Notes under the pieces: model-generated
What the model was told of the DNA's origin: nothing
The model's database searches: none
The model's input: the letters and a program-made list of their open reading frames with translations, nothing else
From: Naegleria gruberi
Lineage: Eukaryota
Direction: 5' to 3' (one strand)
NCBI GenBank assembly: GCA_000004985.1
Contig: GG738846.1
Length of the DNA: 64,000 nt
Shown: piece by piece, positions 2,144 through 60,237 of the stretch
Numbering within the stretch: position 1 is the stretch's first letter
Layout of the letters: each line of letters starts with the position of its first letter
Translations under genes and position numbers: made by a program

Positions 2144-2160
2144 ATAAAATTTAATATTAC

Positions 2161-3090
2161 TTTGTGATTAACTTGAAATGTTATTAACGAACAATCAAAA
2201 AAGTCCAAGAAAACAAAGTCAAAAGTTACCGTAGGTACAATTTTAACAACCAATCCACTATTTTACACTCCTCCACAAAACGTACTAAATAATAACAAAA
2301 AATAATGATTGAGAATATCATAACCTTTGTATAATATAAACTCTAACACTTTTAATAATTGCAAATTTTTTTGAAATTTGCTTGTTGCTACTTGTTTTAT
2401 TGTTAAAAGCTTAACGCTTACTGCGATCTAATATTGGTTTGTTAGAGGTTATCTTTTTCCACTCCTTTGAGAATTTGGATAATAGAAGGTTGTAATGATA
2501 AAGAAGAATTTAATAATTTAATAGACCAACATGGAATTGTTTTACAAAGCATAACAATATTAAGTTTAGTTCAATACAAAATCTAATTCTAATAACTTCG
2601 TTTGAAAAAAAAGGGTAAATACTACAATGTTAACGATTTACTTAACATAGGTTCTGTTGTTGCTATTGAGTTGTTAATTAAAATTAATAATTAATGTTAT
2701 TGTTGTTTCGAATTTAACTAACAAACCTTGAATCCAAACTTTTGAATATTGGTATTCGTTTTTCCAATAAGAAAGCTATTATTATTATCAGAGATAATTG
2801 ATTGTTGCTTTTAAATTTTGGTGGTTTTGTAGTGCTGATAAATTTGTTTGTTGTAAAAGGCTATTTTTATAAGAAAATCCTTTCCATGACTTTGAAATAG
2901 TGGTTTCTTTTTTAAATTGTTTAACCAAGGACTTTGCTAATTCGTTATTTGTGGTAAAATCAAAAATTTGGTCTTCTTGATGATGTAATATATGAAAATA
3001 AATTGACATATTTTTTTAAATAAACTATTTTATCATTACCCAATCATGAAAGGCTAATGGGGAGAGATTATATTTTGGTGTGGATGAATT
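2161..3090. repeat. tandem repeat unit copy 1 (module A 2161-2565 + module B 2700-3090)
   Basis: Module B is >95% identical to 3915-4235. Module A matches 3531-3735 except for two internal deletions in copy 2. It contains the 21-mer AAGCTTAACGCTTACTGCGAT at 2408-2428. Confidence 0.8.
2788..3009 (-). CDS. short ORF of conserved-N-terminus family (MSIYFHILHHQEDQIF…), 73 aa
   Basis: True ATG at 3009..3007 in a ttaaaaaaATG context. It lies inside repeat module B. Divergent paralogs conserve ~50 aa (…ELAKSLVKQFKKETTISKSWKGFS) at the protein level. Confidence 0.3.
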   Translation of the reverse strand: MSIYFHILHHQEDQIFDFTTNNELAKSLVKQFKKETTISKSWKGFSYKNSLLQQTNLSALQNHQNLKATINYL

Positions 3091-3242
3091 ATAATCCAAT
3101 GGCCAAACAATGAATGATTTTATTGATTATTTGTTTGAAAGAGATAGTGAACTAATATTTAGAAATTGCAAGAGAGGTCACAAAATTCAAAAGACCTTAA
3201 TGAAATAATAATGAAGAATTTTCTTTTCCAAAAAGAAATAAT

Positions 3243-3491
3243 TTAATCTTTAAAAGAAAATAACTTCTCAATTTGTTTAACAAAAGCTCCAATAGAAGAG
3301 AAAATCAATATTGGTGGTGATAAATTTGTTTTTTGTTTATCAGAAAATCCATGCCATAATTTTCTAGCGGTTTCTTTTTTAAATTGTTCAACGAAAGACA
3401 TTACTAATTCGCTATCTATAATGCTACTAATAACAAAACCAAAAATTTGATCTTCCTGATGATATAATAAATGAAAAGAATAACTCGACAT
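3243..3491 (-). CDS. short ORF, divergent family member (MSSYSFHLLYHQEDQIFGF…), 82 aa
   Basis: It is ~60% aa identical to the 2788-3009 ORF over the first ~50 aa, while the DNA is clearly diverged. Maintenance of the frame suggests coding. Confidence 0.3.
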   Translation of the reverse strand: MSSYSFHLLYHQEDQIFGFVISSIIDSELVMSFVEQFKKETARKLWHGFSDKQKTNLSPPILIFSSIGAFVKQIEKLFSFKD

Positions 3492-3530
3492 TTTTTTTTA
3501 ACTTTTTAGAGTATATTAATATCCAAGCAC

Positions 3531-4235
3531 TCTGTGATTAACTTGAAATGATATTCACGAACCATCAAAAAAGTCCAAGAAAACAAAGTCAAAAGTAACC
3601 GTAAGTACAATTTTATCACTCCTCCACAAAAATAAACTCTAACAAAATTTGGATAATAGAAGGTTATAACAATAAAGAAGAATTTGATAATTTAATAGAC
3701 CAACATGGAATTGTTTTACAAAGCATAACATATATCTCCTTCTTGTACGTCTCTTTATCCGATTTATAAATACCTTTAAAATTACATTTGCATACTCATA
3801 TTACACATCTATTTATAAACAAGCTCACCAAATCAAAAAATGGTAATCATAGAATCAAACGTCCACACAAGGACTCAGATATTGGAATGAGTTTTATGGG
3901 ATATACTGAAATTACAATTGTTGTTTCGAATTCAACTAACAAACCTTTGAACATTGGTATTCGTTTTTCCAATAATAAATTTGTTTGTTGTAAAAGGCTA
4001 TTTTTATAAGAAAATCCTTTCCATGACTTTGAAATAGTGGTTTCTTTTTTAAATTGTTTAACCAAGGACTTCGCTAATTCGTTATTTGTAGTAAAATCAA
4101 AAAGTTGGTCTTTTTGATGATGTAATATATGAAAATAAATTGACATATTTTTTTAAATAAACTATTTTATCATTACCCAATCATGAAAGGCTAATGGGGG
4201 AGAGATTATATTTTGGTGTGGATAAATTATTATAA
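3531..4235. repeat. tandem repeat unit copy 2 (module A' 3531-3735 + module B' 3915-4235)
   Basis: Direct repeat of 2161-3090, offset ~1.37 kb. The B modules are near-identical, including non-coding flanks. Confidence 0.8.
3847..4146 (-). CDS. short ORF of conserved-N-terminus family, 99 aa (near-identical to 2788-3009 copy, different C-terminus)
   Basis: It lies in repeat module B'. It is identical to copy 1 for 57 aa and then diverges through an indel. Confidence 0.3.
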   Translation of the reverse strand: MSIYFHILHHQKDQLFDFTTNNELAKSLVKQFKKETTISKSWKGFSYKNSLLQQTNLLLEKRIPMFKGLLVEFETTIVISVYPIKLIPISESLCGRLIL

Positions 4236-4790
4236 TCAATACTAATTACAATAAATCAACAATAAATTTGGAATATTTTATTTTTGAAATAATTCATTTT
4301 TTAGTTTATTTTTGGATTTAGATTTTGGCTTTTTGGTTCAATTTGGCTTTTTGCCGATTTTTTATTCACCTATATCCAAAAACTGGTTTGGGATGGATTT
4401 TGGATATTAATATACTCTCTATTATTAATAAAATTAACATAAACAAACCATTGAATACTTCATTATTAATATCAGTGGATCTATTTACTTTTGTTTTCAC
4501 TATTGAAAAATTCTTTAATCAATTAGGAATTAAAAGTTTCTTAATTGTTCCACTTATATATTCGATGAACCCAGTGGTGTCCATTAATTCGAATAGAAGA
4601 ATGTGATCATTTAGATGTTCTTTAACAATATCAATGAATCAACTTTGATAGTATTTATTACTATTTTACAATTATCTGATTCAACAGTGGAATCCATTAA
4701 TAATTATAGTGTTAGAATTAGGAACATGAGGAATCTGATTTCAAGAAGAGGAAATAATTTCTTATTTGTCTATTTTCTAACATGCTTGAT

Positions 4791-5048
4791 TCAATAGAAT
4801 TCAAAGAGAATGAGGTTCAAACTCTCTCCAAGCTGCAAAGAAATTGGTTTGATAGGATGAAGAAACTTTTCTAGATAAGATGTTGACGGTATTGTAGAAA
4901 ATCTATTCCATAACTTTGAAATGGTGGTTTCTTTTTTAAATTGTTCAACCAAAGACATTGCTAATTCGTTATCTATAATGTTACTAATAATAAAACCAAA
5001 AATTTGATCTTTCTGATGATACAATAAATGAAAAGAATAACTCGACAT
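4791..5048 (-). CDS. short ORF, divergent family member (MSSYSFHLLYHQKDQIFGF…), 85 aa
   Basis: ATG at 5048..5046. The track ORF 4791-5159 starts upstream at a non-ATG codon. It conserves the …LVEQFKKETTISKLW… motif. Confidence 0.3.
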   Translation of the reverse strand: MSSYSFHLLYHQKDQIFGFIISNIIDNELAMSLVEQFKKETTISKLWNRFSTIPSTSYLEKFLHPIKPISLQLGESLNLILFEFY

Positions 5049-5073
5049 TTTTTTTTTAATAGTTTCAATATTA

Positions 5074-5811
5074 TTTTTAATTGTTACTTTCGGTAGAAAC
5101 ATTTGGATCATAATTGGTAAATTCAATATTTGCATTCTTTGTTCTGGAAAATTCACCATGCTTCACTTTTAATTTACATGTGGCATTAAAGTGGCATCCT
5201 TGTTGTGCCATTTTACAAACAACTCGAGCAATATTTTTACAATCATCAATACCAGAATGATGTTTGCCAAGGAGAGGTAATTTCAGTGCATTTAACATTG
5301 TCAACATGCCATTCACCTTTTCCATATTGTAAAACTTGGCAAATACATCCTTGACATTGCACCATTGTGTGAAATGAGATCCAATTAAGGAAATTGTTTG
5401 TTTCTCAAAGAAAACTTGATGTGGAATCATTGTTTTTAAGTCCCAATCTTTGAGAATTGTTAAAAACTAATCAAATTGAAAATATTTACCTCCACAAGTG
5501 GCCATCAGGATGTTATCTTTGGTTGGTTTTTCTCCTAAATGAGACATTAACCATTCATTGTGTCTCTTGAGTGCTTCTTCGAATGAAACTCCAGATTCGA
5601 CCATTTCTTGAGTAATTCCAGTCAATTTGGTGCATTCTTCATTAATTTTTGGAATTCTTCTTGTTTTTACATAGTTTTGAATTTCATCCACAACAACCAA
5701 TTGCTTTTCACTTTCAAATTTTAACAAGACTGATGGAAATTCAATAATTTCCATATCATAATTTCTATTAGTTTTACAATCGTCTGCAAAAACAGCTTCA
5801 AAATCCAACAC
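5074..5811 (-). CDS. ERI-1/3'hExo-like DEDDh 3'-5' exonuclease (2 exons seen: 5811..5490, 5447..5074; intron 5448..5489, 42 nt)
   Basis: Exo I motif VLDFEAV. Splicing restores the conserved TCGDWDLK Exo II motif (…MATCG|DWDLKTMIPHQ…). Exo III motif HSGIDDCKNIARV. Donor GTAAAT and acceptor AAG. Stop TAA at 5074-5076. The 5' end is unresolved: there is no in-frame ATG in the exon, and a candidate ATG at 6089..6087 is separated from it by a (TCT)n tract with an apparent frameshift. Confidence 0.6.
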
Positions 5812-6664: not shown

Positions 6665-6835
6665 TTTTTTTTAAAGTTTCTAGTTCAGGAGTGTGATGGA
6701 ATAAAAGAGAACTTGATAATTGAGAAAATTGATTATAAATCAAGAGTGAAATTTGTCTAGTTGAATAAACAATTCAGGTGAGTTGATTTTGTCGAGGTAA
6801 TATATTTTACGAATTATGACAAGTCGTAAATAGGT

Positions 6836-7989: not shown

Positions 7990-8300
7990 CACACTACTTG
8001 ACTTTAAAGAACCTGGTGTAGTAGCGAGTGCTAAACACAAAGCTGTTGGAAATACATCATTTCGCTGTTGACTTCATACAAACAGCATCCAAAGTGTTAG
8101 TCTAACTTGTTTTTGGTAATTTTAAGGTACAAATCAGGAGATTTTTGAAAGCTTGTTGAACAAAGTGGACTATCATATAAACATCAATAGAAAACCATGG
8201 TGAATGAGTGTTTATTACTCTACTAACTCCATGTTGTGATTTTCTAGCCACATTAGGCCTAGGATTGATGGTGTACCATGATACAAATACTTGAAGTGTT
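7990..8300 (+). pseudogene. degenerate partial inverted duplicate of the 5' coding region of the adjacent receptor-like kinase gene
   Basis: On the + strand, 8030-8066 (GAGTGCTAAACACAAAGCTGTTGGAAATA) and 8160-8300 align to the kinase sense sequence (ESAKHKAVGNN … IETSIENNGDCEYVAVSLLTSWPCCDFLAT, encoded on the minus strand near 11450-11760). Indels and stops disrupt the copy. The track ORFs 8102-8311(-) and 11447-11635(+) share this similarity as antisense reads. Confidence 0.55.
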
Positions 8301-11400: not shown

Positions 11401-11805
11401 TCTTTCACCACTCGTGGCATTGTAAATCATCAATCCTGGACCTCCTGTGGCAAGAAAATCACAACAGGGCCATGAAGTTAGCAGAGAAACAGCCACATAT
11501 TCACAATCACCATTATTTTCAATTGATGTTTCTATGGCAGTCAATGTCGTTCCACAAGCTTCCAAAATCTCTGATTTGTACCATAAAATTTCATTGGTGG
11601 TCAAATCCATCTTTACCAAAAACATGTTACACTGATCATTCTTATACTTTGGATGCTTGATAATAATAGTTGGCGAAATACCAATGGAATTTCTAAAAAC
11701 ACCTCCAAAGAATATATTATTTCCAACCGCTTTGTGTTTAGCACTCTCTATTGCTCCAGTTTCGTTCAAGGTGGTGAAAGGAAAGAGCAAAATGAACCAA
11801 ACCAT
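8430..11805 (-). CDS. receptor-like protein kinase: signal peptide, large extracellular region, ~10 Cys-rich EGF/laminin-type repeats, TM helix, kinase domain (3 exons: 11805..8947, 8851..8599, 8554..8430)
   Basis: ATG at 11805..11803 with a signal-like MVWFILLFPFTTL. Repeated CxxGxGxCxxxDxCxCxxxYxGxxC modules. TM helix LVPVGVLVSCLVFFLLVSVALYIY. Kinase motifs GSGGFGQVYKA, HRDLKSANILLD, DFGLSK and DVYSFGIVMYELL. Intron 1 is 8852..8946 (GTAAGT…TTATTAAG). Intron 2 is 8555..8598 (phase-1 GTATAT donor; acceptor TTTTAG, or CAG six nt later at 8549-8554). Splicing restores the subdomain XI motif …YIDLMKDCWDQNPDERPSF. TAA at 8430-8432. Confidence 0.65.
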
Positions 11806-17919: not shown

Positions 17920-20647
17920 TTATTCAGTAACTACTTCTATTTCATTATTTGTTTGCTCGTCATCATCGAAAGGTAAATCAATAGCCAAACTCAAACAATT
18001 TCTTGCTATAATACTCCACAAATATGAAACAAAGAAAGGTTCAGTATCTCCATCTTCAGAGAAGTGTGAAGGCAAAAATTGAATAACTTTCAAGTGTTGC
18101 TCAGCTCTACTAGTCGACCAAAACTGAGATGCTTTATGAATGCACTCTAAGTAGCTCTCTGAACTCCACATTTTGGATTGTTGTGCATTATCCACATATT
18201 CATCAAATACATCATTGGAAATCTCTCTTGATGGTGACATGTGAGATTGTCCAACCTTGTCATTAATCATTTGTTTTCCTTCAATATTAATGATATTGGA
18301 AATTTGCACATCAAAATATTCTACTATTGTCTTTAAATTATGTACATAATCAGGGAATAATGACAATTCCTCAAGTCTCTTGACCACACGTCTCTGATAT
18401 AATAATTCATAAATTAGTCTCAAATTTTTCCTCAATCCACCCTCCTTGTTATTCACCAAAATACAATTTATAGTTTCTAGAGCAAACTTGAGTAAGGAAA
18501 AATGGGTTTCCTTGTCCTCTTCAGTGGATGATGGCAACATTCGTATCTTTTCAAATTTAATGGTCAACAATCTTGTAAGTGTGACCAATCTTTGAGCTGT
18601 ATACGTGTGCATGTTAGAAAAGTATGGACCAGAGTTGGAAATTATTGCAAGGCAAGACCTATTCAAAAACATATCCTTTTTGTGTGAAATATTATAGTGA
18701 ACAACAGAGATGAGTACAGCAACAATCAAACTTCCAAGATGAATTTCATCTAGAATTCTCTCAGTAAACCACGGTACGGAACTGATGACTTGCTTGTGGA
18801 TATTGATCATGAATGATGTGTCTTGAGTGAGAAGTGTGAGTACTACCAGAAGAGTATAAATGTGATTTGGCTTGTCATTCTTTGAATGGTAAATCTTGTG
18901 GAGGAGTGGTAACAAGATTGTCTCTGAGTCTGATTTTGAAAGAACAAACTCTCTGAATGATTTGTTGTCGTGTAACAAACTATAGGTGAGGAGTGTGCAT
19001 TCCTCCTCTTCAAAATCTCTCACAATAGAGTTGAATATCTTTTCAAATGATATTCCATTGTTGCTCTTATCGTCTGACTTGACTTTATATTCTGAATAGT
19101 CGTTAAAGCTCCACGAATTAAATTGAGAAATGATCACATCATCCAAGTTGGTTAGATTTGTAAAGTGTGAAAGGTATGGATTAAGTACTCGGTGATCATT
19201 CTTCCCATAAAATATCAATAACAGAAGATTCATTATACTTCTCCTACCAAGGAGTTCAGGAAGCATTTCACTGAGTTTCTCGCTATATTCAATTTCCTTT
19301 GTTTCCTTATAAAAGATATTTCTATAGGCATTATAGGGCAAGAAGAGGATTGAGGAAGCAGTCTCTCCCAATTTGGAAAAGATTTTTTGGAGTGTAGTTC
19401 TAATTGAAACTTGGAATGGTGATGCCTCCTTCTTTGTAATTCTATATGTTATATGGTTTTGCAAGAGGGCATGTATCAATCTATTTGGATCAAATGATTT
19501 ACAACTTGATTTGAACTGTTTTCTAATTCTCATAATGGAAATTGCCTCCTGCAGGAAGATATTATGCTCTCTGCTTGATTCTTGAATTTTACCAATGGTA
19601 TCATGTACTTCTTCCTCTTCCTGATCCTCATTAATGACGCCTCCATAGAGAGAGGTACTAAATAATATTAAAAGACAGTTCATAACCTCCAAATGCAGTA
19701 AATAATTATGAATTGTCACTCGATTCTCACTCAAAAACAATAAAATAGTCTCTATGAATATTCTCACCACTAGAGGTGAGTGAATTCTATTCTTTCCTTC
19801 CATTTCAAATTCTGGATCTCTTTCCTCATCAATATAACAATAATTTTCAATGAGATTGGCAGACAATTTGAAACCTGGTGGTAAATTATACAAGTGTGTT
19901 TTTAAATACTCTGCATTATTTTCACAATCCATTATAATTCTATGAATGAGATATCTAAAGATTACAAAGGCATTGCAAGTGACAAGAATTGCCTCTCTAT
20001 TCACTGTGGATAAATCCTCTTCAGTGTTTGACTCATCCGACTTTCCCTCTTCCATTCTCAAAATTAACCACTGTGATAATTGTAACATGAAGGCACTCAA
20101 TGATCCTGTCTGTAAATTATTTCCATCTATTCATTTGATTATTATCCACAACAAGTTGTTGTTATCATTATGTAATTAATTAAAATAATATTATATATTG
20201 TCAATATTACAAAGATTTTGAATCAAAATTAATGAATTAACTCTCTGATCAGAGAGAGATGTAATAATTTTAATACCTACGTAAAAGTGATGCATATTTA
20301 AACAAGTGTTTATCCAAAATATCAGGATGAAGTAAAGACAATGGAAAGTAATCTCCGATATTGAGTACAGATGAAGAAGAAACAGCTCGAGCTACAAGCC
20401 CAATTCCACTACTGGTGGATGATTTCTCACCACCATCGGATAATGTACCATTGTTTTGTTGTGGTTGTTGTTGATTGGAAAACGTTGATTGAGAAATAAT
20501 AGTTTGAGAAATGGATAAGAGAGACTGATACGCAAATTTACTCCAAAATTCATCATGATTTCTAATAGGCTCTGCTCCACACAAATCATTTAGAAAATCA
20601 TTTTGGCCAATAGTATTTTCAACCGATGATGAAAAGGTTCCTCCCAT
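17920..20647 (-). CDS. dymeclin (DYM) homolog, 2 exons (20647..20281, 20126..17920)
   Basis: The N-terminus MGGTFSSS…NDFLNDLCGAEPIRNHDEFWSKF parallels the dymeclin N-myristoylated MGxxxS…DPFWNQLL start. The intron is 20127..20280 (154 nt, GTAGGT…GAATAG, phase 1) and joins in frame. The total is ~857 aa, including a Q-rich insertion. TAA at 17920-17922. Confidence 0.55.
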
Positions 20648-20864
20648 ATTATTATTATTATTATTATTATAATTGTAAAAAGTCTATATTAAATGTATTC
20701 TGCTTGATGATGATATTATTGTGTTTTTTAAAAAGCTTTCCGAAAGATCTTGTTGTGTGTGATGAAGAATTTGATTTTTTTTTCTTTTGAAACAAAAAGG
20801 AAGCAAGTTTTTTAATTTTCAATATCAATTAAGAAATTGACCTAGTGCTCAAAAATGGGTAATC

Positions 20865-21938
20865 TCAATGAATTTTATTATAGGCATTCAATAAAAGGAA
20901 TTGGTAGAGATTGGATAGATGATTTTGCCAATTTGGATCTGATTTGGTGATGGATTCAATGTTGAGTTTGGAAAGGATGGATTTGAGGATTTCTTTCTCT
21001 TTAAAACATTGTGGGGAGAGTATGATATTGGAAATTTGCTGTTCAATGAATTGTTTCAGTATTATTTGAGTTTCATTATACTTTTCAATTAAAAGATCAT
21101 TATTGAAATATCCAAATTTGTAAATGAGATAGTTGTAGAATTTTTGTTGAGAGAGTGGTTTTCCTTTGTGTAATTTTTCATACAGTATTTGAATGAATTG
21201 ATCCAAATCCAAGAGGTACATTTCATTTTGTGTTTTAATGTATTTGAATATTTGCATTGGATGAACAGAATGATCGAGAAATAAACTCTGTTCCAATATT
21301 TCAGATGAATCATACTGACCAATACTATTCAAAATTTCCGAATAATTCAATTTACAATGATGAGAGAATTGGTGGGTATTCCGAGTCAAGATGAGTCTAA
21401 TCATTTTAGGCATTGCTTGTTGATACTTGTTAATATTCCTCAAATGTCCAAATGATTGAAAATATTTAACACATTGAGTGAGATAAATTACATAATTATT
21501 TACATAGTCCGTTTTAACGCCCAATCTATTAATTATACTTTGAATGTATGAATTGAGAATGTTAATTTTCAATTGCTTGTACTTTTTAAAATTATTATAA
21601 TTGGTTTTACACTCTCTACAGATAAAGTAATTTAAAACTTTAGATTTGAGCTCAGAATTTTCATAGACGAGATATTTTACATTTTCATATACATTTCCAT
21701 ACTTGATAGATAAGGTTAAATATTTATACAATTGTACATCATTATTTACAATAAAGTATTGATTATATACACATTGACAATGATCCAAAATGATTAATAA
21801 TTGATCAACTCGATTCTTGTGACTAATTTTCGAATAAATTGTCAAATTTTCAATTGAATCCGATTCTAAATCTTCAATTTTAACTTGATAAATATTTCCA
21901 TATAATATATCCACTGTTTTTGAATATTCTTGTATCAT
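20865..21938 (-). CDS. hypothetical Asn/Lys/Tyr/Ile-rich protein (357 aa)
   Basis: True ATG at 21938..21936 and an intact ORF. It is low-complexity with no recognisable domain. ORF 21985-22263(-) might be a 5' exon joined by a weak GTTAAA donor. Confidence 0.35.
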   Translation of the reverse strand: MIQEYSKTVDILYGNIYQVKIEDLESDSIENLTIYSKISHKNRVDQLLIILDHCQCVYNQYFIVNNDVQLYKYLTLSIKYGNVYENVKYLVYENSELKSKVLNYFICRECKTNYNNFKKYKQLKINILNSYIQSIINRLGVKTDYVNNYVIYLTQCVKYFQSFGHLRNINKYQQAMPKMIRLILTRNTHQFSHHCKLNYSEILNSIGQYDSSEILEQSLFLDHSVHPMQIFKYIKTQNEMYLLDLDQFIQILYEKLHKGKPLSQQKFYNYLIYKFGYFNNDLLIEKYNETQIILKQFIEQQISNIILSPQCFKEKEILKSILSKLNIESITKSDPNWQNHLSNLYQFLLLNAYNKIH

Positions 21939-21984
21939 TATTTGTTTTCTTTTTTCAATTTCCGAGAGTATGAAATTTTGATTT

Positions 21985-22263
21985 TTAACCTTGTCTGCCT
22001 CCTCTCTCCTCTTTCAAATAATATTCCAAATAATCCATCAAATTATTCATCAATTCCGAGAGTTTTTCCAAATCACGATTAAAATATGACTTTAGGAATT
22101 TACTTTTTTTCAATTCATCATAGAAAGCAAGAGCTTGCTCTCGTGTTTTTAATTTTCTTTTCTTTATCAATAAATATAATGATGATGATTGTTGACTCGT
22201 AAAGTGATCATGTTTGTTCCGATAAAAATTGGTTTCAAAATTGGTTTTCAACTCTGTTTGCAT
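21985..22263 (-). CDS. small hypothetical ORF (92 aa) or 5' exon of the downstream gene
   Basis: True ATG at 22263..22261. It is basic and helical. A possible in-frame junction to 21938-ORF exists at a non-consensus donor. Confidence 0.25.
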   Translation of the reverse strand: MQTELKTNFETNFYRNKHDHFTSQQSSSLYLLIKKRKLKTREQALAFYDELKKSKFLKSYFNRDLEKLSELMNNLMDYLEYYLKEERGGRQG

Positions 22264-22661
22264 TTTTATTTAAATAAAATTAATATTATCCTTCAAAAAA
22301 CTATTCAAAATGGCAAAGTTCCTGGTGTATTTTCAAGTACCTCACTCAACATTGCAATCTCCTGTTAGAATGGTCATAGAGTTTGTTTGTACTGGATGCA
22401 AAGTTCAAAAGAGAAATCAATGTTAATAACATCCTTGAAGGATCGACCGATGGCTTAGAAAAACTCATAAATCCACATTCCAAAAAAATTCCTATTCCAC
22501 CTTACAAACATTCTTGTACTTGATCCACTCTATCATCAGAATCAGAACTATTTGATTTTTCAGAAACAGGGATACTCTCATTCTCTGTCATGGGTTGTTG
22601 CTTTTCTGCCATCTCCTTCACACTAATAGATGATGAAACCTCCATGGTGATATCACCCCTC

Positions 22662-23948
22662 TCACTTCCTTCCAAATCCACCACATTCACATCTCACACC
22701 ATCACCACCACCACTTTGATTTTTACTGTATTTATGGGTACTACTGGTATTCCTGGCAGATTGAATGTGTTTTGAATTGTTAGATCTGATACTACTGGTG
22801 GTACCATTCTGATCAGATCCTTGATTTTCCTTGAGAAGGTGAATGGGTGTGTAGAGAGCCAAAGCAGTGAATGCAAAAACAAGAATTCCCAAAGTGTTAC
22901 ATATTGAATATCCAAGTGCAAAATGACTGAGTGCTGGATCTTGTTGAGCAACACCACTGCCACCTGCAAAAGCTTCGAATAGAAAACATCCAAATAATCC
23001 ACTTTGTAAAATTAGTACTTTAACAATGGAATTTCTCTTCTTTTTTTGATCTTCAGCTATTTTTGAAATTGTTTTAAGAACTGCATATGCTGCAATCTAA
23101 TTAAAATTGTAAATTGACTCGTAAACATTTTGTAAACATACCACCAACATTGTAATTTGAGTTGTCACCTCCAACACAAATATTATAAAACATAAAATAT
23201 AGCCGTACGTGACCAAATCATCTCCAGCATAGGCCAATCTATTTAAAATAGTGACAATACTCACAAATACAGTAATCAAAACCAATCCAACTGAATTAAT
23301 ACCTGTAAAAATTGTTACAATTTTTGTAAAGTAAAATAATTTTTTGGATCGAAGTGTTCCACTCGAGAGTCTAAATGTTTCAATGAAAACCAACGTTACA
23401 AACCAAACGATAATGACCATCACTTGAACATTCATCAATGCCATACATATTTCAAGGGATTCTGCAATTGCATAAATGACAATTTGTTCGAATGGAATTC
23501 CAACTTCATGGGGTGTTAGTCCGAGTGTATTGTTGAACCAGAGTAGAGTTTGAAAACCCTCAATTATTGTTTCATTATTTCCATACCTATCCGAAAAATA
23601 ATCTTGATATCTGAATCCAAATGAAATGTTAAGACTATCGAAAATAATCCTCGAAATTAACAAGACAATTTCCAAGCAACACATAACCAACACTCCATAA
23701 ATAATTCTTTTTTGATTTTTCATTAAATTTCCCCTTTCCCGCCTCAACTTGAGCAGGAAGTAAATGATAAAGAGGAGTAGACCAATAGTGATGAACAAGT
23801 AGATGATGACTATTGTCATTTCAATGTATGATACGATGAGTGGTTCAAGTCTTAGGAGAGATGTTAGTACAGGTGGGAGAGTATTGTTTGACAATGACAT
23901 TGATAACAGTGATGATTCCAGTTGCGGTAGTGGTGATGAGGTTGTCAT
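22662..23948 (-). CDS. seven-transmembrane (GPCR-like) membrane protein, 2 exons (23948..23142, 23096..22662)
   Basis: ATG at 23948..23946, with seven hydrophobic helices. The in-frame TAG at 23099-23097 lies inside a 45-nt intron (23097..23141, GTATGT…TTTTAATTAG, phase 0) that joins two track ORFs in frame (…TQITMLV|IAAYAVLKTI…). The C-terminal end is uncertain because ORF 22502-22690 continues in a +1 frame. Confidence 0.5.
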
Positions 23949-24202
23949 TTTGTTTTTTTTCTAATGGAATTTTGTAGCTCTTATTAAAAGTTACTATTAG
24001 TGACAGTTTGAAAAAAAACCATCTCTCCCATCTTTAAATGTTTTGACATGGTATGGTGTATTTTTAATCCTTGCAAATAATTAAAGGAAACCTTGATAAA
24101 TAAAAAACAAGATACCATTTCCAAACAAAGTAACTTTTTTGGGTTGTAATATTCTTTCTGATGAATTTAATTTCAAAAAAACAATTAAAAATATCAAAAA
24201 AA

Positions 24203-24478
24203 ATGTCAATTTATTTTCATTTATTATTTCACCAAGAAGACCAAATTTTTGGTTTTTTTATTCAACAACAAATTAATTTAATTCCATTACCTTTGGGTTT
24301 TTTGATAAATTCATTTAATAACAAAACTAATAGAAATGAATTTGAAAAACCCTTCTTCAAGCGCGTTGCGTGTGTTTGTGAAATTGGTTGTGGCCACTTT
24401 TTGATCCTGATTATATTTGGCAAGGGCTATATATATGGAAACGAGTTCAAATTTTTTCTAATGTCGTTTCTATCATAA
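24203..24478 (+). CDS. short ORF of conserved-N-terminus family, subfamily C (MSIYFHLLFHQEDQIFGFFIQQQIN…)
   Basis: ATG at 24203 in an aaaaaaaATG context. 24195-24400 is near-identical to 24716-24910. Confidence 0.3.
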   Translation: MSIYFHLLFHQEDQIFGFFIQQQINLIPLPLGFLINSFNNKTNRNEFEKPFFKRVACVCEIGCGHFLILIIFGKGYIYGNEFKFFLMSFLS

Positions 24479-24728
24479 ATAGGAACCAAAATACAACAAA
24501 CCAACATCGTCTAAGTAGTTGGAAGATGTTAACAAATCTGATCTCAAAAAATTCATAAATACATTCATCATTTGTGTAAAAAAGTGAACATATTTAAATG
24601 TTACATTGTAAATTAATAAAACAAGATTGAGAATTAGTAATAATTATGATGAAGATGACATCTGTTCCAAGCTTAGTGGAATACTTTTAGACAGATGCTA
24701 TTTAATAAATAAAAATATCAAAAAAAAA

Positions 24729-25049
24729 ATGTCAATTTATTTTCATTTATTATTTCACCAAGAAGACCAAATTTTTGGTTTTTTTATTCAACAACAAATT
24801 AATATAATTCCAATACATATGGGTTCTTTTATAAATTCATTTAATAACAAAACTAATAGAAATGAATTTGAAAAACCCTTCTTCAACTACGTTGTGTGTA
24901 TTTGTGAAATTGGTTATAGATGGCAAGTTGTGTCTGTTTTCCACTATTTTGATTGGTATGTTCAAGTTTACAAGATCATCAATATAAGCTCCTTCAAAAC
25001 CTTGTATTTCATAAACCATCAAAAATTCATAAATATCAACAATATCTGA
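24729..25049 (+). CDS. short ORF of conserved-N-terminus family, subfamily C, second copy
   Basis: ATG at 24729. It is identical over the first ~66 aa to the 24203 copy. The inverted 21-mer ATCGCAGTAAGCGTTAAGCTT at 25526-25546 lies ~480 bp downstream, in the same relative arrangement as in the 2.1-3.1 kb unit. Confidence 0.3.
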   Translation: MSIYFHLLFHQEDQIFGFFIQQQINIIPIHMGSFINSFNNKTNRNEFEKPFFNYVVCICEIGYRWQVVSVFHYFDWYVQVYKIINISSFKTLYFINHQKFININNI

Positions 25050-25556
25050 AACATGGTGGAATAGTATGGTGGAGTAGTATGTGTATATATCAACTTTTAG
25101 CACCAGCAGTATAAAAGTGAACATATATACCTTTTAACTTACACATTACTTATAATTTTATATATTAGAAGCATGATAGTTGAATAAGTCATCAGTATCA
25201 ATTATGGAACAAGTATTATTCAAGTTTTTGAAATGGAGAACTTTTAGATAATCAATATAGAACCAAACAGAAACACCTTTGCTTTTTCATCTTGTCCAAC
25301 CACTAAAAAATATTCAGGAATTAATGTTGAATAATATTTTTGGTGCTTAATGTGGGATTCTTATCAAAAGTAGTTTCAATCATCTTTGTATGTTGCTCAG
25401 AAATGCTGTCTTTTAGGTCATTAACTTTATTCAGTAATGATTTTGCTTGATGTGTTTACCATGTTTCTTAATTTTTTTGAGCATAAAAATTATTTATCAA
25501 CTCAATTTTATTGTTTACAAAAAATCGCAGTAAGCGTTAAGCTTACGTAGGTTTAA

Positions 25557-25606
25557 NNNNNNNNNNNNNNNNNNNNNNNNNNNNNNNNNNNNNNNNNNNN
25601 NNNNNN
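25557..25606. other. assembly gap (50 N)
   Basis: Run of N. Confidence 1.
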
Positions 25607-27399
25607 ACCTTATTTTGTTGTTGATAAACCTATAAACAAACAACTTATGATTCAATTAAAATCAAAAACATAAATTTTTACATGAAAAATAATTTCTAAT
25701 TTCATGATAATAATTTTCCAATAAAAATCACTATTACTACTAGTATATAGATGATGTAGAGATGACGAGCTGAAATTATTGTGGTATAAAGATGTGAAAC
25801 CACTCTGTTAATCATCAAAGTAGTCTTCCCTACTACCGAACCGTTTATTTGTTTCAAAGCAATTTAAAATTACTGAAAATTCTTTATTAATGAAGAGTAA
25901 GTATTAATAAGATTCAATGACCTGGATTGTGGAAGGTTGACCAAACAGGCAATGCAGTGAAAATACATAGTTTAACTCGTCAAGAGAAAACCGGCATGAT
26001 TTTGCATAACGTGGAATAGTATTATCATTAGTATTTGTTTGAACAACAATACTGAAATAATAGTTATTATATTTGTGGAAGGCTCAAGAATGAATGGTTA
26101 TTGCCAATGTTGGCATATTTTTTAAATCCTCTGAAAACTTCACTTTCTACTCTTTCTCCATTCATTGGTGAGAAAATCTATTCTTGGTTTCTTAATCATT
26201 ACTACCTTAGCATAATCAATAAATTCGAAACAATAACTGAACAAGTAACTCTAACTAGTGTAGCAATAGATTGAGCACAGTTAGTGTAAGAATATTATTG
26301 ACAAATAATTCAAACCGAATGGAACAGTTGTTTAGAAGACAATTTTGAACAAACACTAATGACCAAACTCCAACAATTAGGAAATCTGAAAAAACTTAAA
26401 GACAATTTCGAAAAACATATTACTAATAAATTGAATACTCTTTTAACAACCAAAAAGTATTTAGAGGAAGAAATGTATTAGAAAATTATCAAGAAACAAC
26501 ATAAAAACAAGGTCTAGCAAAATAAATGACTTAATTTTAACCAAATCGGAAGTTCTTTCAATTTCTCCAAATAAAATACAACTTGATTTATTGGATTTTT
26601 GAGATTTGTGATTTGATGTAATATAATAGGTAACAAAGTTTACCTTTAAAGAACCATTTGAACAAGCGAAAATTGAATAAATAGTGGCTTCATTTAAGAA
26701 GGCTGTAATTTAATAATCAAAAAAAACAAATTAACAATAATTAACAATATGATTCAATTAAATGAATCCAGCAATCAATATCTTCATTGTATTGAATTTC
26801 ATATCGGTGAAATATTTGAAGGCTTTGAAATCTGCATATTTCTTTATGTTTTAATGGTTTTACAAGAAAGTTTGGAACAAGAGAAATCAAATAGTAATAA
26901 CCTTTTTGGGATTCAATTTTATTTGAAAAATCGTTCAAATGTTCATGTGAATAGAATAATCCATGTTATAACATTACAAATCTTCTTCACTTTACCAATA
27001 TGATTCATTTGTTTCAAGTTTAAGGATTTTTTACATGTTAGATCAATACTTTGAAAATAATTCTTTCTTTCTTCCATATTATAAAAATCCTTAATATCAT
27101 TTTGATCAAGTGATTCATTATTACCATCACTATCAATGGACTGTGTTATATACGAAACAATCCCGTATAAAAAATTATTCAGTAATATTCGGTCGCATCA
27201 TTCTTCCATTTGCAAAAAATATCTTTGTACACACCGATTCCCGCTAAATTATTTTGATGATAATTTTAACAATTTTTTCGTCAAATTTTAACGTATCAGA
27301 TTGCAAAATTATGAAATAAAGTTTATTGAAAAATTTTAAAAATTGATGCTTAAAGCATAATAAAATCGTCAACAAGTGTTGGGAGAAAAATTCCAAATT

Positions 27400-27575
27400 A
27401 ACGCGCAATTGACGTCAAGAATTATCGTCAATTCTTAATGATTTATTATCAATTTTTGACGTCAAAAATTGATAATAAATTGATAATGTTTTGTATCAAA
27501 TATTGATGAAAAAACATCAATAATTACGTCAAAAAATTCATAATAATTATTGTCAATTATTGACTAAATTCCAGC
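27400..27575. promoter_or_regulatory. cluster of TGACGTCA (CRE-like) palindromes and TTGATAAT/ATTGAC repeats
   Basis: Perfect TGACGTCA at 27410-27417 and 27467-27474. TTACGTCA at 27524-27531. The inverted GTCAAT…ATTGAC pair at 27552-27566. Interspersed TGATAATAAATTGATAAT repeats. No ORF. Confidence 0.35.
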
Positions 27576-28066
27576 AATTATTTACTCCAAAATCTTGTAA
27601 AATTTCCAAGTTCCAAACTCATCTATTATTAGATCCACTTCCATTCCAAATTTCCAACCGAAAAAAATATCTACACTCCTCATCCTCACTCCAACTGATG
27701 AAATATCACTCACCTCTTCAGTTACATTCAAAATTAATGATAATAAATCAAAATTACTTACATTGTTTTCTGTTCAAAATCTGTTGCTTGCATATAAATC
27801 GTGCTGTTTAGCACAAATTGAATTATAACAAATTACCTAATTTCTTGTGATGAATAATTTTGATGATCCGTAGCAGGTAAAATCATATAATATGAAAATA
27901 ATACAACAAACCAATTTCGAAGAATAAAATCTTTATAAATCCAACTAACAACAATAATTAAAAAATTAAGAAATTAAGAAATTTAAATACAACAAACCAA
28001 TAAACAATAAAACTCCGCCAACAATTATCGTATTAACAAATTAATGATACTATTCAATATTTAATG

Positions 28067-29235
28067 NNNNNNNNNNNNNNNNNNNNNNNNNNNNNNNNNN
28101 NNNNNNNNNNNNNNNNNNNNNNNNNNNNNNNNNNNNNNNNNNNNNNNNNNNNNNNNNNNNNNNNNNNNNNNNNNNNNNNNNNNNNNNNNNNNNNNNNNNN
28201 NNNNNNNNNNNNNNNNNNNNNNNNNNNNNNNNNNNNNNNNNNNNNNNNNNNNNNNNNNNNNNNNNNNNNNNNNNNNNNNNNNNNNNNNNNNNNNNNNNNN
28301 NNNNNNNNNNNNNNNNNNNNNNNNNNNNNNNNNNNNNNNNNNNNNNNNNNNNNNNNNNNNNNNNNNNNNNNNNNNNNNNNNNNNNNNNNNNNNNNNNNNN
28401 NNNNNNNNNNNNNNNNNNNNNNNNNNNNNNNNNNNNNNNNNNNNNNNNNNNNNNNNNNNNNNNNNNNNNNNNNNNNNNNNNNNNNNNNNNNNNNNNNNNN
28501 NNNNNNNNNNNNNNNNNNNNNNNNNNNNNNNNNNNNNNNNNNNNNNNNNNNNNNNNNNNNNNNNNNNNNNNNNNNNNNNNNNNNNNNNNNNNNNNNNNNN
28601 NNNNNNNNNNNNNNNNNNNNNNNNNNNNNNNNNNNNNNNNNNNNNNNNNNNNNNNNNNNNNNNNNNNNNNNNNNNNNNNNNNNNNNNNNNNNNNNNNNNN
28701 NNNNNNNNNNNNNNNNNNNNNNNNNNNNNNNNNNNNNNNNNNNNNNNNNNNNNNNNNNNNNNNNNNNNNNNNNNNNNNNNNNNNNNNNNNNNNNNNNNNN
28801 NNNNNNNNNNNNNNNNNNNNNNNNNNNNNNNNNNNNNNNNNNNNNNNNNNNNNNNNNNNNNNNNNNNNNNNNNNNNNNNNNNNNNNNNNNNNNNNNNNNN
28901 NNNNNNNNNNNNNNNNNNNNNNNNNNNNNNNNNNNNNNNNNNNNNNNNNNNNNNNNNNNNNNNNNNNNNNNNNNNNNNNNNNNNNNNNNNNNNNNNNNNN
29001 NNNNNNNNNNNNNNNNNNNNNNNNNNNNNNNNNNNNNNNNNNNNNNNNNNNNNNNNNNNNNNNNNNNNNNNNNNNNNNNNNNNNNNNNNNNNNNNNNNNN
29101 NNNNNNNNNNNNNNNNNNNNNNNNNNNNNNNNNNNNNNNNNNNNNNNNNNNNNNNNNNNNNNNNNNNNNNNNNNNNNNNNNNNNNNNNNNNNNNNNNNNN
29201 NNNNNNNNNNNNNNNNNNNNNNNNNNNNNNNNNNN
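28067..29235. other. assembly gap (1169 N)
   Basis: Run of N. The six-frame ORFs spanning it are artefacts. Confidence 1.
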
Positions 29236-31139: not shown

Positions 31140-33119
31140 AGAAGTAATTTCATTAGAATAATCCCCTTTAATATAGGTAAAGGTCCTGTTGTTATACTTG
31201 TAGGTTGTATCAGTATATTAAATTTAGTAATCATGATGGCTTGATATTGATGCCTAGGCCAAAATACTTAATAATAGGTTCATAGATTTGTTGGAACACT
31301 ATGGGAACCAATTGAATTATTTCACTTAATCATTGGTTCTAAAAGATTTTCTAGACAATGGATGAAAGTACAACGTTTCTTTTTCAAGAATGATGATAAG
31401 GACACTAGAAATTATGATCAAGTTAAGAAGAAGGTAATGAGGTTAGAAAAAGACACCAAGCTTCAATTGCAAAACTTAACATTGGCATAAACTGGACTGC
31501 AATTGAAAATTACTGAATCCTACCCTATTAACGAAGAGTACATTAGTATTTATAATAAGGTTTCAATAACCGAAGAAGAGTTTCAAAAAACAATACTACT
31601 AAGATTAATAAATATATTTAAATATATCAACAACTCCAAAAAACAACACCAAGAAGAGCAACAACACAAACAAGAAGACCACGGAAACTGAACAAGAAGA
31701 AGAATTTGAAAATTTAGTTCTTAGAAAATATTGGCGAATATTCCAATGCAAGAATTAAGGTTGGAGTGGTACAACAACAATAGATAGAAACTCTCTGATA
31801 ATTCAAAAAAAGTAGAGATACTTTCTCAACCGCATCTTCTTATGTGTTTATCATTTGTTTGAGTGGTGAAGGATAGTAAATTATCAAATCTAAAGTGCAG
31901 GTAAATGAAAAAAAAGTAGAGATACTTTCTCGATCAAATCGTGTCATCCTTGTCCAGGGACCATGCTAATCTTCTCTGTATCGTTTATCCAATTTTCTAG
32001 CGTCCCTCGAGGGGACTTATCAATATAGGATTTGGTCGATGACTAAAAGTTGAACAAGAAAATATAGTAGTTTTTATTGTGGTTTTGAAAAATGACCTTT
32101 AATTTAATTAGTAAAAATATATTGGAAAGAGAGTGGCTACTTTCTTCTGGTACTATTAAATCACTAATAAACACAATATTTATTATCAGTTTTTCATTAT
32201 TTTGTGTTTTGGCTTGGAGCCAAACCTTGATTGATTCACTCCTTCAAGATTGATCAAACTCATTGCGAACAAGATATTAAAATATTAAATTCTTATTGTT
32301 TCTTTTAATTTCTTTCACCTTAAATCTAACAATTAACCTCATTTCCATAAACATCACTATGATCAAATTAAATTTCAAAGATAACCAACTTGTTCAACAT
32401 CTACACATTCTAGTGATCACACTCATATCAATTAATCCATTTTTCATTTTCAAATTTTTTACTTTCCAAAGTTTCCCAACAAAAATGTCAAAACGTAATA
32501 GGAGTAGTTTATAAGCTGAACCTAAGGTGCCAACTCAAAAGACTTACAATAAAACAAATAATCATAAAGGCCAATATAATAGCAACAGGCGGCAGTCACA
32601 TTAAGGATAAAGCAGGATACAGCATTGTGACAGACAGGGAAAACCTTCAAATCAGGCATCATATGCCCAAAATGCTGAACTACAAGCTTATCCATAAAGC
32701 TAATAAAGAAACTGGCTTCAAACTATGAATGGAGCAAAGATCTTAACAAATATGTAAGCATTTTGTAACAGCCATTTTTTCAATCAAGTGAAGATACTCT
32801 ATTGTCTTTTAGTTTTACAACGTGATATTTCTTTAGATGCACAAGTAGCTCATGCTCTCACAAACGAGATGAAAATCTCTCTTCCCTTCTACAACTCTCA
32901 ACTTTGAGATGTTTGATTTAATCAGCGAAAAACAACGAGTTCCAATCTTATTAGTGTGTGAGTGAAGATTATAATATTGGTGAATGAAAGTGAAATTTCC
33001 AAATATTCAACTTGACACTTCACTTGGCCCAACTATACTATTAAACAGCGTCTATCTTTTTGTGGCGTTCAATTTTAAAAACAATAACAACTTTATTTTT
33101 CATATTATAAAATTATAAT

Positions 33120-50776: not shown

Positions 50777-50989
50777 ATGTCACAAATCTATCACATGTTA
50801 ATTCATCAAGAACACCAAATTAATTCTTTAAAATGTGATTTAATCTTCAAAATCCTCCCAGTCTTCAAAATTGATCGGCGATTTAATAAGGCTTGCAAAC
50901 TTGTCAATAATTTCAAAATAAGCCTTTTTCAAGTCAAAGTCAGAAGAATTAACATTTCTTTCTTTTCACAAAAGACACACAATTCATAA
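50777..50989 (+). CDS. short ORF of conserved-N-terminus family, subfamily D (MSQIYHMLIHQEHQINSLKCDL…)
   Basis: ATG at 50777. The 5' ~60 nt is homologous to the 24203/3009/60237 copies. The ORF runs into the left TIR of the adjacent element. Confidence 0.25.
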   Translation: MSQIYHMLIHQEHQINSLKCDLIFKILPVFKIDRRFNKACKLVNNFKISLFQVKVRRINISFFSQKTHNS

Positions 50990-59436: not shown

Positions 59437-59660
59437 ATGGTAAAATATTTGTTGTGGTGGTTTTAATAATTAATAACGAGGGGATGGAAAATCCGTCATC
59501 CAAATCCCACACAACTCCTCCACTAAAATCCAGAATCCACAATATCTGGGATTTGGATTAAGGTTATTCCATCCCCTCTTAACAACAAATCACATTTAAA
59601 AGAATTAATTTGATTTTCTTGATGAGATAAAATGTGGTTGATTTGATGTGTCATTTTTGA
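59437..59660. repeat. repeat copy carrying a MITE-like insertion (paralog of 60126-60240)
   Basis: GGTAAAATATTTGTTGTGGT…TTTTAATAATTAA[insertion]CAACAAATCACATT…GATGAGATAAAATGTGGTTGATTTGAT is shared with 60126-60240. Confidence 0.7.
59478..59578. mobile_element. 101-bp palindromic MITE-like insertion with 12-bp perfect TIRs (GAGGGGATGGAA / TTCCATCCCCTC) and nested inverted repeat (TCCAAATCCCA / TGGGATTTGGA)
   Basis: It is present in the 59437-59660 copy and absent from the otherwise colinear paralog at 60126-60240 (AATAATTAACAACAAAT). It is flanked by a TTAA/TAAC direct-repeat context. The exact target-site duplication is ambiguous because of local TAA repeats. Confidence 0.6.
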
Positions 59661-59958: not shown

Positions 59959-60237
59959 TTAAGCAAAATATTGTAAAAGAATTGAAGTTTTAATGGATCT
60001 GCAATTAAAATTGGTGCTGGAAGTGTATATTGTAAAAGGTTGAGATATTTGTGTTAAATATTGCAACCTTCTTACAACCACCAAAAAGCAAGACAAAAGA
60101 AAGCGAATTCTTTTTCTTTTTGTTGTTGAGGGTAAAATATTTGTTGTGGTAGTTTTAATAATTAACAACAAATCACATTGAAAAGAATTAATTTGATTTT
60201 CTTGATGAGATAAAATGTGGTTGATTTGATAAATCAT
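59959..60237 (-). CDS. short ORF of conserved-N-terminus family, subfamily D (MIYQINHILSHQENQINSFQCDL…)
   Basis: ATG at 60237..60235. The 5' ~60 nt is homologous to the 50777 copy. The ORF extends into the repeat at 60126-60240. Confidence 0.25.
   Translation of the reverse strand: MIYQINHILSHQENQINSFQCDLLLIIKTTTTNILPSTTKRKRIRFLLSCFLVVVRRLQYLTQISQPFTIYTSSTNFNCRSIKTSILLQYFA

What the first reader, a model, noticed from the sequence alone, without database searches (positions are those of the whole stretch)
24160..25606. Second small-ORF cluster in opposite orientation with the same downstream 21-mer, inverted, abutting an assembly gap
Two + strand copies of the conserved-N-terminus ORF (subfamily C; ~200 bp near-identical) are followed ~480 bp downstream by ATCGCAGTAAGCGTTAAGCTT (25526-25546). 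This is the reverse complement of the 21-mer at 2408-2428, which lies at the same relative position, ~380 bp 3' of the ORF, in the first cluster. The small ORF and this 21-mer are therefore parts of one composite unit that has been copied in both orientations. The gap at 25557 starts 10 bp after the motif, which suggests the repeat broke the assembly.
Basis: seen in the sequence. Interest (0 to 1): 0.5.

Follow-up and report, generated by a model that had tools for sequence, protein, structure and literature searches.

The report
Orphan small-ORF arrays sharing a 21-mer
Two oppositely oriented tandem arrays of an unannotated, Naegleria gruberi-specific small-ORF family are each followed by the same isolated 21-base word; the match is real, but the word is not a regular part of the repeat unit or a transposon end, and it does not explain the assembly gap.

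Summary
The window is Naegleria gruberi nuclear DNA. ATCGCAGTAAGCGTTAAGCTT occurs exactly twice, at 25524-25544 (+) and 2407-2427 (-). Each copy lies downstream of the last unit of a small-ORF array, in the same orientation relative to the ORFs. Chance is excluded: it is the only exact repeat of 20 nt or more outside extended duplications, and no simulated window had a GC-rich repeated 21-mer.

The "composite unit" reading is only partly supported. The flanks show no homology, and there are no TIRs, TSDs or poly(A) tails. No degenerate copies exist. The word follows 2 of 10 known family members. It is missing from the sister tandem unit in cluster 1, from clusters 3 and 4, and from a member at another locus. 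A 21-bp repeat cannot break a Sanger assembly.

The ORFs form a genuine lineage-specific family. A 13-codon core (H-x-L-x-HQE-x-QI) shows coding-type constraint; the tails evolve neutrally. There is no Pfam hit and no homologue outside N. gruberi-like contigs.

My best reading: tandem orphan-gene arrays that turn over by duplication, indels and short-tract sequence exchange, with the 21-mer as a short copied or surviving patch. Modest interest.

The parts
24203..24478 (+). Small ORF C1 (91 aa from the conserved ATG; the mechanical ORF starts at 24161)
   Evidence: An orthologue that is 94% identical was called on the ENA contig L001 (P0001).
24729..25049 (+). Small ORF C2 (106 aa). The first 82 nt, including 25 codons, are identical to C1; the tail has diverged.
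24187..25250 (+). Two-unit tandem array, period 526-533 nt. The 5' 203 nt are 93% identical. The 3' ~330 nt of each unit show no extended similarity beyond short islands. There is no third ORF.
   Evidence: (D3, D14)
25524..25544 (+). 21-mer ATCGCAGTAAGCGTTAAGCTT, copy 2
   Evidence: Here it forms a local 6-bp hairpin (GTAAGC/GCTTAC) that is not conserved at the other site.
25557..25606 (.). 50-N assembly gap
2407..2427 (-). 21-mer copy 1, 264 nt downstream of the convergent RGS gene stop. It lies in a 122-nt stretch that is absent from the sister tandem unit.
2788..3009 (-). Small ORF A1 (73 aa)
3243..3491 (-). Small ORF B1 (82 aa)
3847..4146 (-). Small ORF A2 (99 aa)
4791..5048 (-). Small ORF B2 (85 aa from the conserved ATG). 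It starts 29 nt after the stop of the ERI1-like exonuclease ORF.
2159..5080 (-). Cluster 1: tandem duplication of a ~1.4-1.55 kb unit, each unit holding one A and one B ORF
   Evidence: (D2, D4, D5, D6, D12, D13, D16)
50777..50989 (+). Small ORF E. Only the N-terminal module is conserved; its tail is an inverted fragment of the gene-like region at 52451-52946.
   Evidence: (I1, I4)
59523..59654 (-). Small ORF D1, interrupted after codon ~25 by a 105-nt MITE-like insertion
59959..60237 (-). Small ORF D2

Best explanation
The region holds a two-unit tandem array (C1, C2) of an unannotated small-ORF family found so far only in Naegleria gruberi. The family has at least ten members: four clusters in this window and one member at another locus. 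Its members share an A-rich leader, an ATG and a ~13-25-codon N-terminal module (H-x-L-x-H-Q-E/K-x-Q-I/L). Subfamilies A, B and C and P0012 also share a weaker ~45-aa region (EL-x-x-S-x-V-x-QFKKE). Everything 3' of that is free to drift. The arrays grow and decay by local tandem duplication, indels, a MITE insertion and fusion to unrelated sequence. The ORF 5' part stays near-identical within an array, whether through selection or through short-tract gene conversion. I infer, but have not shown, that the 21-mer downstream of the last unit in clusters 1 and 2 is one of two things. It may be a short tract copied from one array to the other during repair or recombination between the inverted paralogous arrays (ectopic gene conversion or template switching). 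Or it may be the last surviving island of the 3' flank of a common ancestral unit. It is not a transposon terminus, it is not an obligatory part of the unit, and it is not the cause of the gap.
For: Organism: a window ORF is 100% identical to an N. gruberi protein.
Family: nine copies in the window plus P0012 on contig L008, next to a MAPEG gene.
Coding-type constraint in the core: at the five codons whose amino acid never varies, 0 of 10 first and second positions vary, against 4 of 5 third positions.
Neutral tails: C1 and C2 differ by 10 amino acids in codons 26-58, whereas their first 82 nt are identical. The orthologue P0001 has a frameshifted C-terminus.
Lineage-specific: there is no Pfam hit. 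Only N. gruberi-like metagenome contigs matched among 5.8e9 and 1.84e9 proteins. Nothing was found in ~90 kb of N. fowleri and N. lovaniensis DNA, in JGI metagenomes or in viral contigs.
The 21-mer: it is exact, isolated, sharply bounded and not chance. There are no intermediate or degenerate copies, which fits a recent short copy better than an old, widely used motif. It is absent from the sister unit and from the other clusters.
Rapid structural turnover: three indels separate units 1 and 2. A 98.6%-identical strain lacks window 2216-2615 altogether. There is a MITE insertion in D1.
Against: Conversion tracts normally lie within recognisably homologous flanks, and there are none here.
A 100% match next to ORF modules that are only 83-88% identical could instead reflect strong selection on the word.
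The two sites are 23 kb apart, which is far for template switching.
A 10-nt flank match (TTTTATTGTT) lies on the same + strand side at both sites (p ~0.01). It fits neither the relic model nor the unit model.
There are no expression or population data.
The genome-wide copy number of the 21-mer is unknown.
Confidence: 0.45

Rival explanations
1. The 21-mer is a functional cis-element that belongs to the arrays and is kept identical by selection. It could be a site for a sequence-specific DNA- or RNA-binding factor, a 3'-end or boundary element, or a shared small-RNA target or source (21 nt is the length of an siRNA).
For: It is a perfect 21/21 match, while the neighbouring ORF modules are only 83-88% identical between the clusters (I2-I13). 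It has the same orientation and lies after the last unit in both arrays. It is a GC-rich island (43%) in AT-rich spacer. The flanks have diverged completely.
Against: It is absent downstream of clusters 3 and 4, of L008 and of the sister unit in cluster 1. A 98.6%-identical strain lacks the whole segment at site 1, so the segment is dispensable. There is no Rfam match and no fold shared between the two sites. It was not found in ~90 kb of other Naegleria DNA. No degenerate versions exist, whereas a binding-site family would usually show some.
Confidence: 0.25
2. One reading: the small ORF plus the 21-mer form one mobile composite unit (MITE-like, Helitron-like or retroposed) that has been inserted in both orientations.
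For: The family is dispersed, with five loci in both orientations. The genome does carry MITE-like elements: a 105-nt insertion with 32-nt TIRs between TTAA repeats. The ORF and the 21-mer have the same relative orientation in both clusters.
Against: No TIRs, TSDs or poly(A) tails bound any unit. Homology between subfamilies is confined to about -10 to +75 or +150 of the ORF and does not reach the 21-mer. The distance from the ATG to the 21-mer differs by 213 nt. Eight of ten members have no 21-mer. The variation in the conserved module follows codon positions, which is not how a transposon end varies.
Confidence: 0.07
3. Assembly artefact: the last ~33 nt of the contig before the gap (25524-25556) come from a chimeric or low-quality read end, so the second copy does not truly lie at this locus.
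For: The copy lies 12 nt from a contig end. No flanking homology supports its placement.
Against: A 21-nt chimeric piece drawn from 23 kb away on the same scaffold, and landing in an orientation that matches the ORF arrays, would be an odd coincidence. Nothing resembling a vector or adapter was found in 185,579 prokaryotic genomes, JGI metagenomes or viral contigs. This could not be tested directly, because no reads were available and the related-strain contig L001 stops at 24820.
Confidence: 0.08
4. Pure coincidence.
For: AT-rich matches of 12-15 nt are common in this window. One isolated 18-mer also occurs elsewhere.
Against: None of 150 simulated windows had a repeated 21-mer with GC >= 0.4, and only 0.7-3% had any repeated 21-mer. 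On top of that, both copies would have to fall by chance within 0.8 kb downstream of homologous arrays and in matching orientation.
Confidence: 0.02

Closest known systems
Lineage-specific (orphan) small-ORF gene families in tandem arrays, evolving by birth-and-death and concerted evolution
   Same: The copies are head-to-tail with a shared unit. The 5' coding module is near-identical within an array, while the spacer has diverged. Some members are degenerate or truncated. No homologues were found outside the lineage.
   Different: Only a ~13-25-codon N-terminal module is conserved family-wide. The tails appear neutral and are sometimes unrelated sequence, so it is unclear whether full-length proteins are made. 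Expression has not been shown.
MITEs / TIR DNA transposons (e.g. TTAA-targeting piggyBac-like MITEs)
   Same: These are short, non-autonomous, dispersed repeats found in both orientations. A true MITE-like insertion is present in the same window (59474-59578).
   Different: The ORF units and the 21-mer have no terminal inverted repeats, no target-site duplication and no common ends.
Templated insertions / short-tract ectopic gene conversion during double-strand-break repair
   Same: It is a short, perfectly identical, sharply bounded patch shared by two paralogous regions. It sits in an indel-rich stretch.
   Different: The template is 23 kb away. The flanks show no residual homology. The event itself cannot be observed.
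Helitron 3' ends (hairpin followed by CTRR, inserted at A|T)
   Same: At site 2 the word forms a 6-bp hairpin. At site 1, read on the + strand, the word is followed by CTAA-T.
   Different: The hairpin and the CTRR are not shared by the two sites. The flanks on either side share no homology, so no common element body exists.

Membership tests
TIR transposon / MITE | Terminal inverted repeats at the ends of the repeated unit | tested here: not met
   Inverted-repeat scans of 2100-2800 and 24900-25556 gave only weak AT-rich pairs, none at shared unit ends. The two 21-mers themselves are 23 kb apart and enclose ordinary cellular genes: Dymeclin, MORN, an exonuclease and an EGF-kinase.
TIR transposon / MITE | Target-site duplication flanking each copy | tested here: not met
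   The flanks of the 21-mers and of the ORF modules share no duplicated bases. By contrast, the D1 insertion has TTAA on both sides.
TIR transposon / MITE | Many copies sharing the same 5' and 3' ends | tested here: inconclusive
Homology ends at different points in each subfamily. The whole genome could not be scanned.
Helitron | A 3' hairpin followed by CTRR and a 5' TC, inserted between A and T, with a homologous element body | tested here: not met
   The hairpin is 6 bp at site 2 but only 4 bp at site 1. CTAA-T follows the word at site 1 only. The flanks show no homology.
Processed (retroposed) copies | A 3' poly(A) tract and TSDs | tested here: not met
   The A-run lies 5' of the ATG, not 3' of the unit.
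Tandemly duplicated protein-coding gene family | Head-to-tail units | tested here: met
   C1/C2 have a period of 526-533 nt. The A/B unit has start-to-start spacings of 1137-1557 nt. D1/D2 have a period of 583-692 nt.
Tandemly duplicated protein-coding gene family | Coding-type (codon-position) constraint | tested here: met
   This holds for the 13-codon core only: in codons with an invariant amino acid, 0 of 10 first and second positions vary against 4 of 5 third positions. It does not hold for the tails.
Tandemly duplicated protein-coding gene family | Evidence of expression or translation | not testable with these tools
   No transcript or proteome data were available. The small ORFs do not appear among N. 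gruberi proteins in the databases searched.
Any Pfam protein family | A significant profile match | tested here: not met
   Eight ORFs gave 0 families at E <= 1. The AlphaFold model has low confidence (pLDDT 53, all-helical).
Any Rfam RNA family | A covariance-model match at or near the gathering score | tested here: not met
   The only match above threshold in the window is U6 at 31912-32016. Around the 21-mers all matches have E > 2.
Large inverted segmental duplication | Paralogy of the flanking genes in mirror order | tested here: not met
   A tblastn of all ORF pieces from 1-7144 against 20000-28066 matched only the small-ORF N-termini.

The most novel reading that the evidence does not exclude
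The small ORFs encode a previously unrecognised, N. gruberi-specific family of short peptides defined by an H-x-L-x-HQE-x-QI N-terminus. The 21-nt word is a shared regulatory element of the arrays: either an siRNA-length target or source, or an array-boundary site. It is kept identical by selection while everything around it decays.
Probability: 0.08. Interest if true: 0.55.

Novelty: new member of a known kind. Interest (0 to 1): 0.25.

Why it matters
If the family is expressed, it adds an unannotated, fast-evolving orphan peptide family to a model free-living excavate, and shows how such genes spread through local tandem duplication and decay. The 21-mer would matter only if it proves to be a recurrent genomic signal. 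On present evidence it is a local curiosity, and it has no bearing on the assembly gap.

Tried and rejected
- Exact scans for the 21-mer in JGI metagenome contigs, GTDB genome contigs and IMG/VR gave 0 hits.
- Searches for related loci with the ORF profile in metagenome and viral contigs gave none.
- Exact-protein look-ups for the window's RGS ORF, for ORF A1 and for the annotated RGS protein P0013 all failed. As a result I could not get NCBI gene calls or further N. gruberi sequence.
- P0014 and its contig L009 turned out to be an unrelated clustering artefact.
- A 23-kb TIR-bounded mobile or viral element between the two 21-mers was rejected, because the genes inside are ordinary cellular ones.
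- I looked for a shared coding exon through the 21-mer. In every frame, a stop lies next to the word, or inside it, at one site or the other (sequence).
- I considered splice-site or branch-site readings (GTAAGC, CTTAAC). They are not consistent between the two sites.
- A search for a gene to the right of the gap found stops in all six frames across 25150-28066.
- I tested whether the 122-nt insertion is a patchwork of templated pieces. Apart from the 21-mer, only chance-level matches of 12-15 nt were found.
- A literature search on N. gruberi repeats, MITEs and orphan genes, and on PRJEB11402, found nothing relevant.
- The structure prediction was too uncertain to justify a fold search.

Full report
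ORGANISM AND CONTEXT
The window has 32% GC, carries a U6 snRNA gene and encodes eukaryotic proteins: RGS, EGF-receptor kinase, PAS-guanylate cyclase, LRR, Dymeclin and MORN. The 1000-aa WD40 ORF at 37318-40320 is 100% identical to a Naegleria gruberi protein on a 1.0-Mb scaffold. Its N. fowleri and N. lovaniensis orthologues are ~69-70% identical. The window is therefore N. gruberi nuclear DNA. It has three assembly gaps: 7145-7194, 25557-25606 and 28067-29235.

THE OBSERVATION
ATCGCAGTAAGCGTTAAGCTT occurs at 25524-25544 (+) and 2407-2427 (-) and nowhere else, even with 3 mismatches or 6 mismatches.

The two subfamily-C ORF copies are real: 24187-24389 versus 24713-24915, 93% identical over 203 nt, with the first 82 nt identical.

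The word begins 475 nt after the C2 stop. In cluster 1, 360 nt lie between the A1 stop and the word. Measured from the ATGs, the distances are 795 and 582 nt. In both clusters it follows the last ORF of the array in the direction of the ORFs.

The gap starts 12 nt after the word.

IS IT CHANCE?
No. It is the only exact repeat of 20 nt or more in the window that is not part of an extended duplication. Markov-simulated windows contain any repeated 21-mer in only 0.7-3% of cases, and one with GC >= 0.4 in 0 of 150. That both copies also sit within 0.8 kb downstream of homologous arrays, in matching orientation, makes coincidence negligible.

WHAT THE SMALL ORFS ARE
A six-frame motif scan finds nine members in four clusters:
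- A1, B1, A2 and B2 at 2788-5048 (-)
- C1 and C2 at 24203-25049 (+)
- E at 50777 (+)
- D1 and D2 at 59523-60237 (-)

A tenth member (P0012) lies next to a MAPEG gene on contig L008. That contig comes from ENA assembly ERZ929261, which also supplied contigs 97.5-98.6% identical to the window (L001, L004).

All members share an A-rich leader, an ATG and the core H-x-L-x-H-Q-E/K-x-Q-I/L. At the five codons whose amino acid never varies, none of the 10 first and second positions vary, whereas 4 of the 5 third positions do. That is a coding-type signature.

Subfamilies A, B and C and P0012 also share a weaker ~45-aa region, EL-x-x-S-x-V-x-QFKKE.

Beyond that region the tails look unconstrained:
- C1 and C2 differ by 10 amino acids in codons 26-58.
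- The orthologue P0001 has a frameshifted end.
- The tail of E is an inverted fragment of the gene-like region at 52451-52946.
- D1 is interrupted by a MITE-like insertion.

The family appears specific to the lineage:
- There is no Pfam match.
- A word-indexed search of 5.8e9 proteins and an exhaustive HMM search of 1.84e9 representatives returned only the two ENA N. gruberi-like ORFs.
- About 90 kb of N. fowleri and N. lovaniensis DNA around orthologues of two window genes contains no member.
- Metagenome and viral scans found none.
- An AlphaFold model is all-helical but has low confidence, pLDDT 53.

This is an unannotated, lineage-specific small-ORF family in tandem arrays. Whether it is expressed is unknown.

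IS THE ORF PLUS THE 21-MER A COMPOSITE UNIT?
The evidence is mostly against it.
- With both clusters oriented ORF-first, the only exact matches of 10 nt or more are two pieces of the ORF module and the 21-mer. Local alignment of the intervening and following sequence scores at the level of shuffled sequence.
- Cluster 1 is itself a tandem duplication (2159-3528 and 3529-~5080). The 21-mer lies in a 122-nt stretch present in unit 1 and absent from unit 2, one of three indels between the two units.
- Clusters 3 and 4 and L008 have no copy.
- No TIRs, TSDs or poly(A) tails delimit a unit.
- Protein-level comparison of the two neighbourhoods shows no other paralogy, so this is not a large inverted segmental duplication.
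- The genes between the two words are ordinary cellular genes, so the words are not the TIRs of a 23-kb element.

WHAT THE 21-MER IS NOT
- It is not a known RNA, and the two sites share no fold.
- It is not a shared exon: in every frame a stop lies next to the word, or inside it, at one site or the other.
- It is not vector or contaminant sequence as far as the prokaryotic, metagenomic and viral collections can tell.

THE RELATED-STRAIN ALLELE
The related-strain allele (L004, 98.6% identical over the RGS gene) replaces window 2216-2615 with 67 nt of unrelated sequence. That deletion also removes parts of the ancestral D5 and D6 blocks. It shows the segment is dispensable and that the region turns over quickly, but it does not date the word.

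THE GAP
The identity ends 12 nt before the gap, and those 12 bases do not match the other site. A 21-bp repeat cannot confound Sanger-read assembly. The sequence right of the gap has no similarity to either cluster and has stops in all frames as far as 28066. The cause of the gap is unknown. The diverged tandem array beside it, or simply low coverage, is as likely as anything else.

MECHANISM
Shown:
- The arrays are tandemly duplicated.
- The ORF module is conserved in a coding pattern.
- The spacers decay quickly by indels, a MITE insertion and fusion to unrelated sequence.
- The 21-mer is a real, sharply bounded, perfect, two-copy match associated with two arrays.

Inferred:
- Within arrays, the 5' ~200 nt stay 90-98% identical while the rest of the unit shows no extended similarity beyond short islands. 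This suggests short-tract gene conversion, selection on the module, or both.
- The 21-mer is most simply a short tract copied between the two inverted arrays during repair or recombination, or the last island left of an ancestral 3' flank (confidence ~0.45).

The main rival is a selected cis-element, such as a binding site, a boundary element or an siRNA-length target (~0.25). The perfect identity favours it. Its absence from most family members, from the sister unit and from the related strain's allele counts against it. A mobile composite unit (~0.07), a contig-end artefact (~0.08) and chance (~0.02) are less likely.

One unexplained detail remains. A 10-nt match (TTTTATTGTT) lies just left of the word on the + strand at both sites (p ~0.01 against random intergenic pairs). 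Relative to that flank the word is inverted, which fits neither the unit model nor the relic model. It may be coincidence.

VERDICT
In kind, this is a new member of a known category, a lineage-specific tandem small-ORF family, with a curious shared 21-mer. The decisive test is to count and inspect all genomic copies of the word and of the ORF module in the full N. gruberi assembly. That could not be done with the collections available here.

Noticed in passing
window 59474-59578: A 105-nt MITE-like insertion is present in small-ORF copy D1 but absent from its tandem sister D2 (compare 60162-60165). It has 32-nt terminal inverted repeats, 88% complementary (GAGGGGATGGAA...), and is flanked by TTAA on both sides (59470-59473 and 59579-59582), where D2 has a single TTAA. 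This looks like a TTAA target-site duplication of the piggyBac type. There is no other copy in the window.
   Followed up: partly
window 50841-51053 vs 52451-52946: The tail of small ORF E is an inverted partial duplicate (89 nt at 94% and 67 nt at 91%) of the start and middle of the gene-like ORF at 52573-53280 and its upstream exon-like segment. The conserved N-terminal module is therefore fused to unrelated sequence.
   Followed up: partly
window 31912-32016 (-) and 31800-31947: There is a U6 snRNA gene (76.6 bits). A 44-nt stretch that overlaps its 3' end (31904-31947) is repeated directly, at 80% identity, at 31800-31843. This may be a partial U6 duplicate.
   Followed up: no
window 23949-28066: About 4 kb has no ORF of 100 aa or more apart from the small-ORF family, and all six frames are full of stops from 25150 to 28066. 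That is unusually gene-poor for the compact Naegleria genome. The stretch is flanked by two assembly gaps.
   Followed up: partly
L004 4648-4714 vs window 2216-2615: A contig from ENA assembly ERZ929261 (98.6% identical over the RGS gene) has 67 nt of unrelated sequence in place of 400 nt of the window, including one 21-mer copy. After the RGS stop it also keeps a block that matches window 3495-3585, which unit 1 of the window has lost. This is a structural polymorphism in the array between close strains.
   Followed up: yes
window 8002-8280 vs 11418-11770: Inverted repeats of 52-53 nt (83-85%) link two oppositely oriented ORFs, one of which is the EGF-domain protein kinase. This looks like a local inverted paralogue pair.
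   Followed up: no
window 2394-2403 and 25507-25516: The same 10-mer, TTTTATTGTT, lies just left of the 21-mer on the + strand at both sites, although the 21-mer itself is inverted between them (p ~0.01 against random intergenic pairs). Unexplained; possibly coincidence.
   Followed up: partly
window 4791-5159 and L008 1053-1090: Two family members start within the presumed 3' UTR of a same-strand upstream gene. B2 starts 29 nt after the ERI1-like exonuclease stop, and P0012 starts 35 nt after a MAPEG gene stop. D2 starts 158 nt after the stop of ORF 60395-60958. This may hint at co-transcription with the upstream gene.
   Followed up: no
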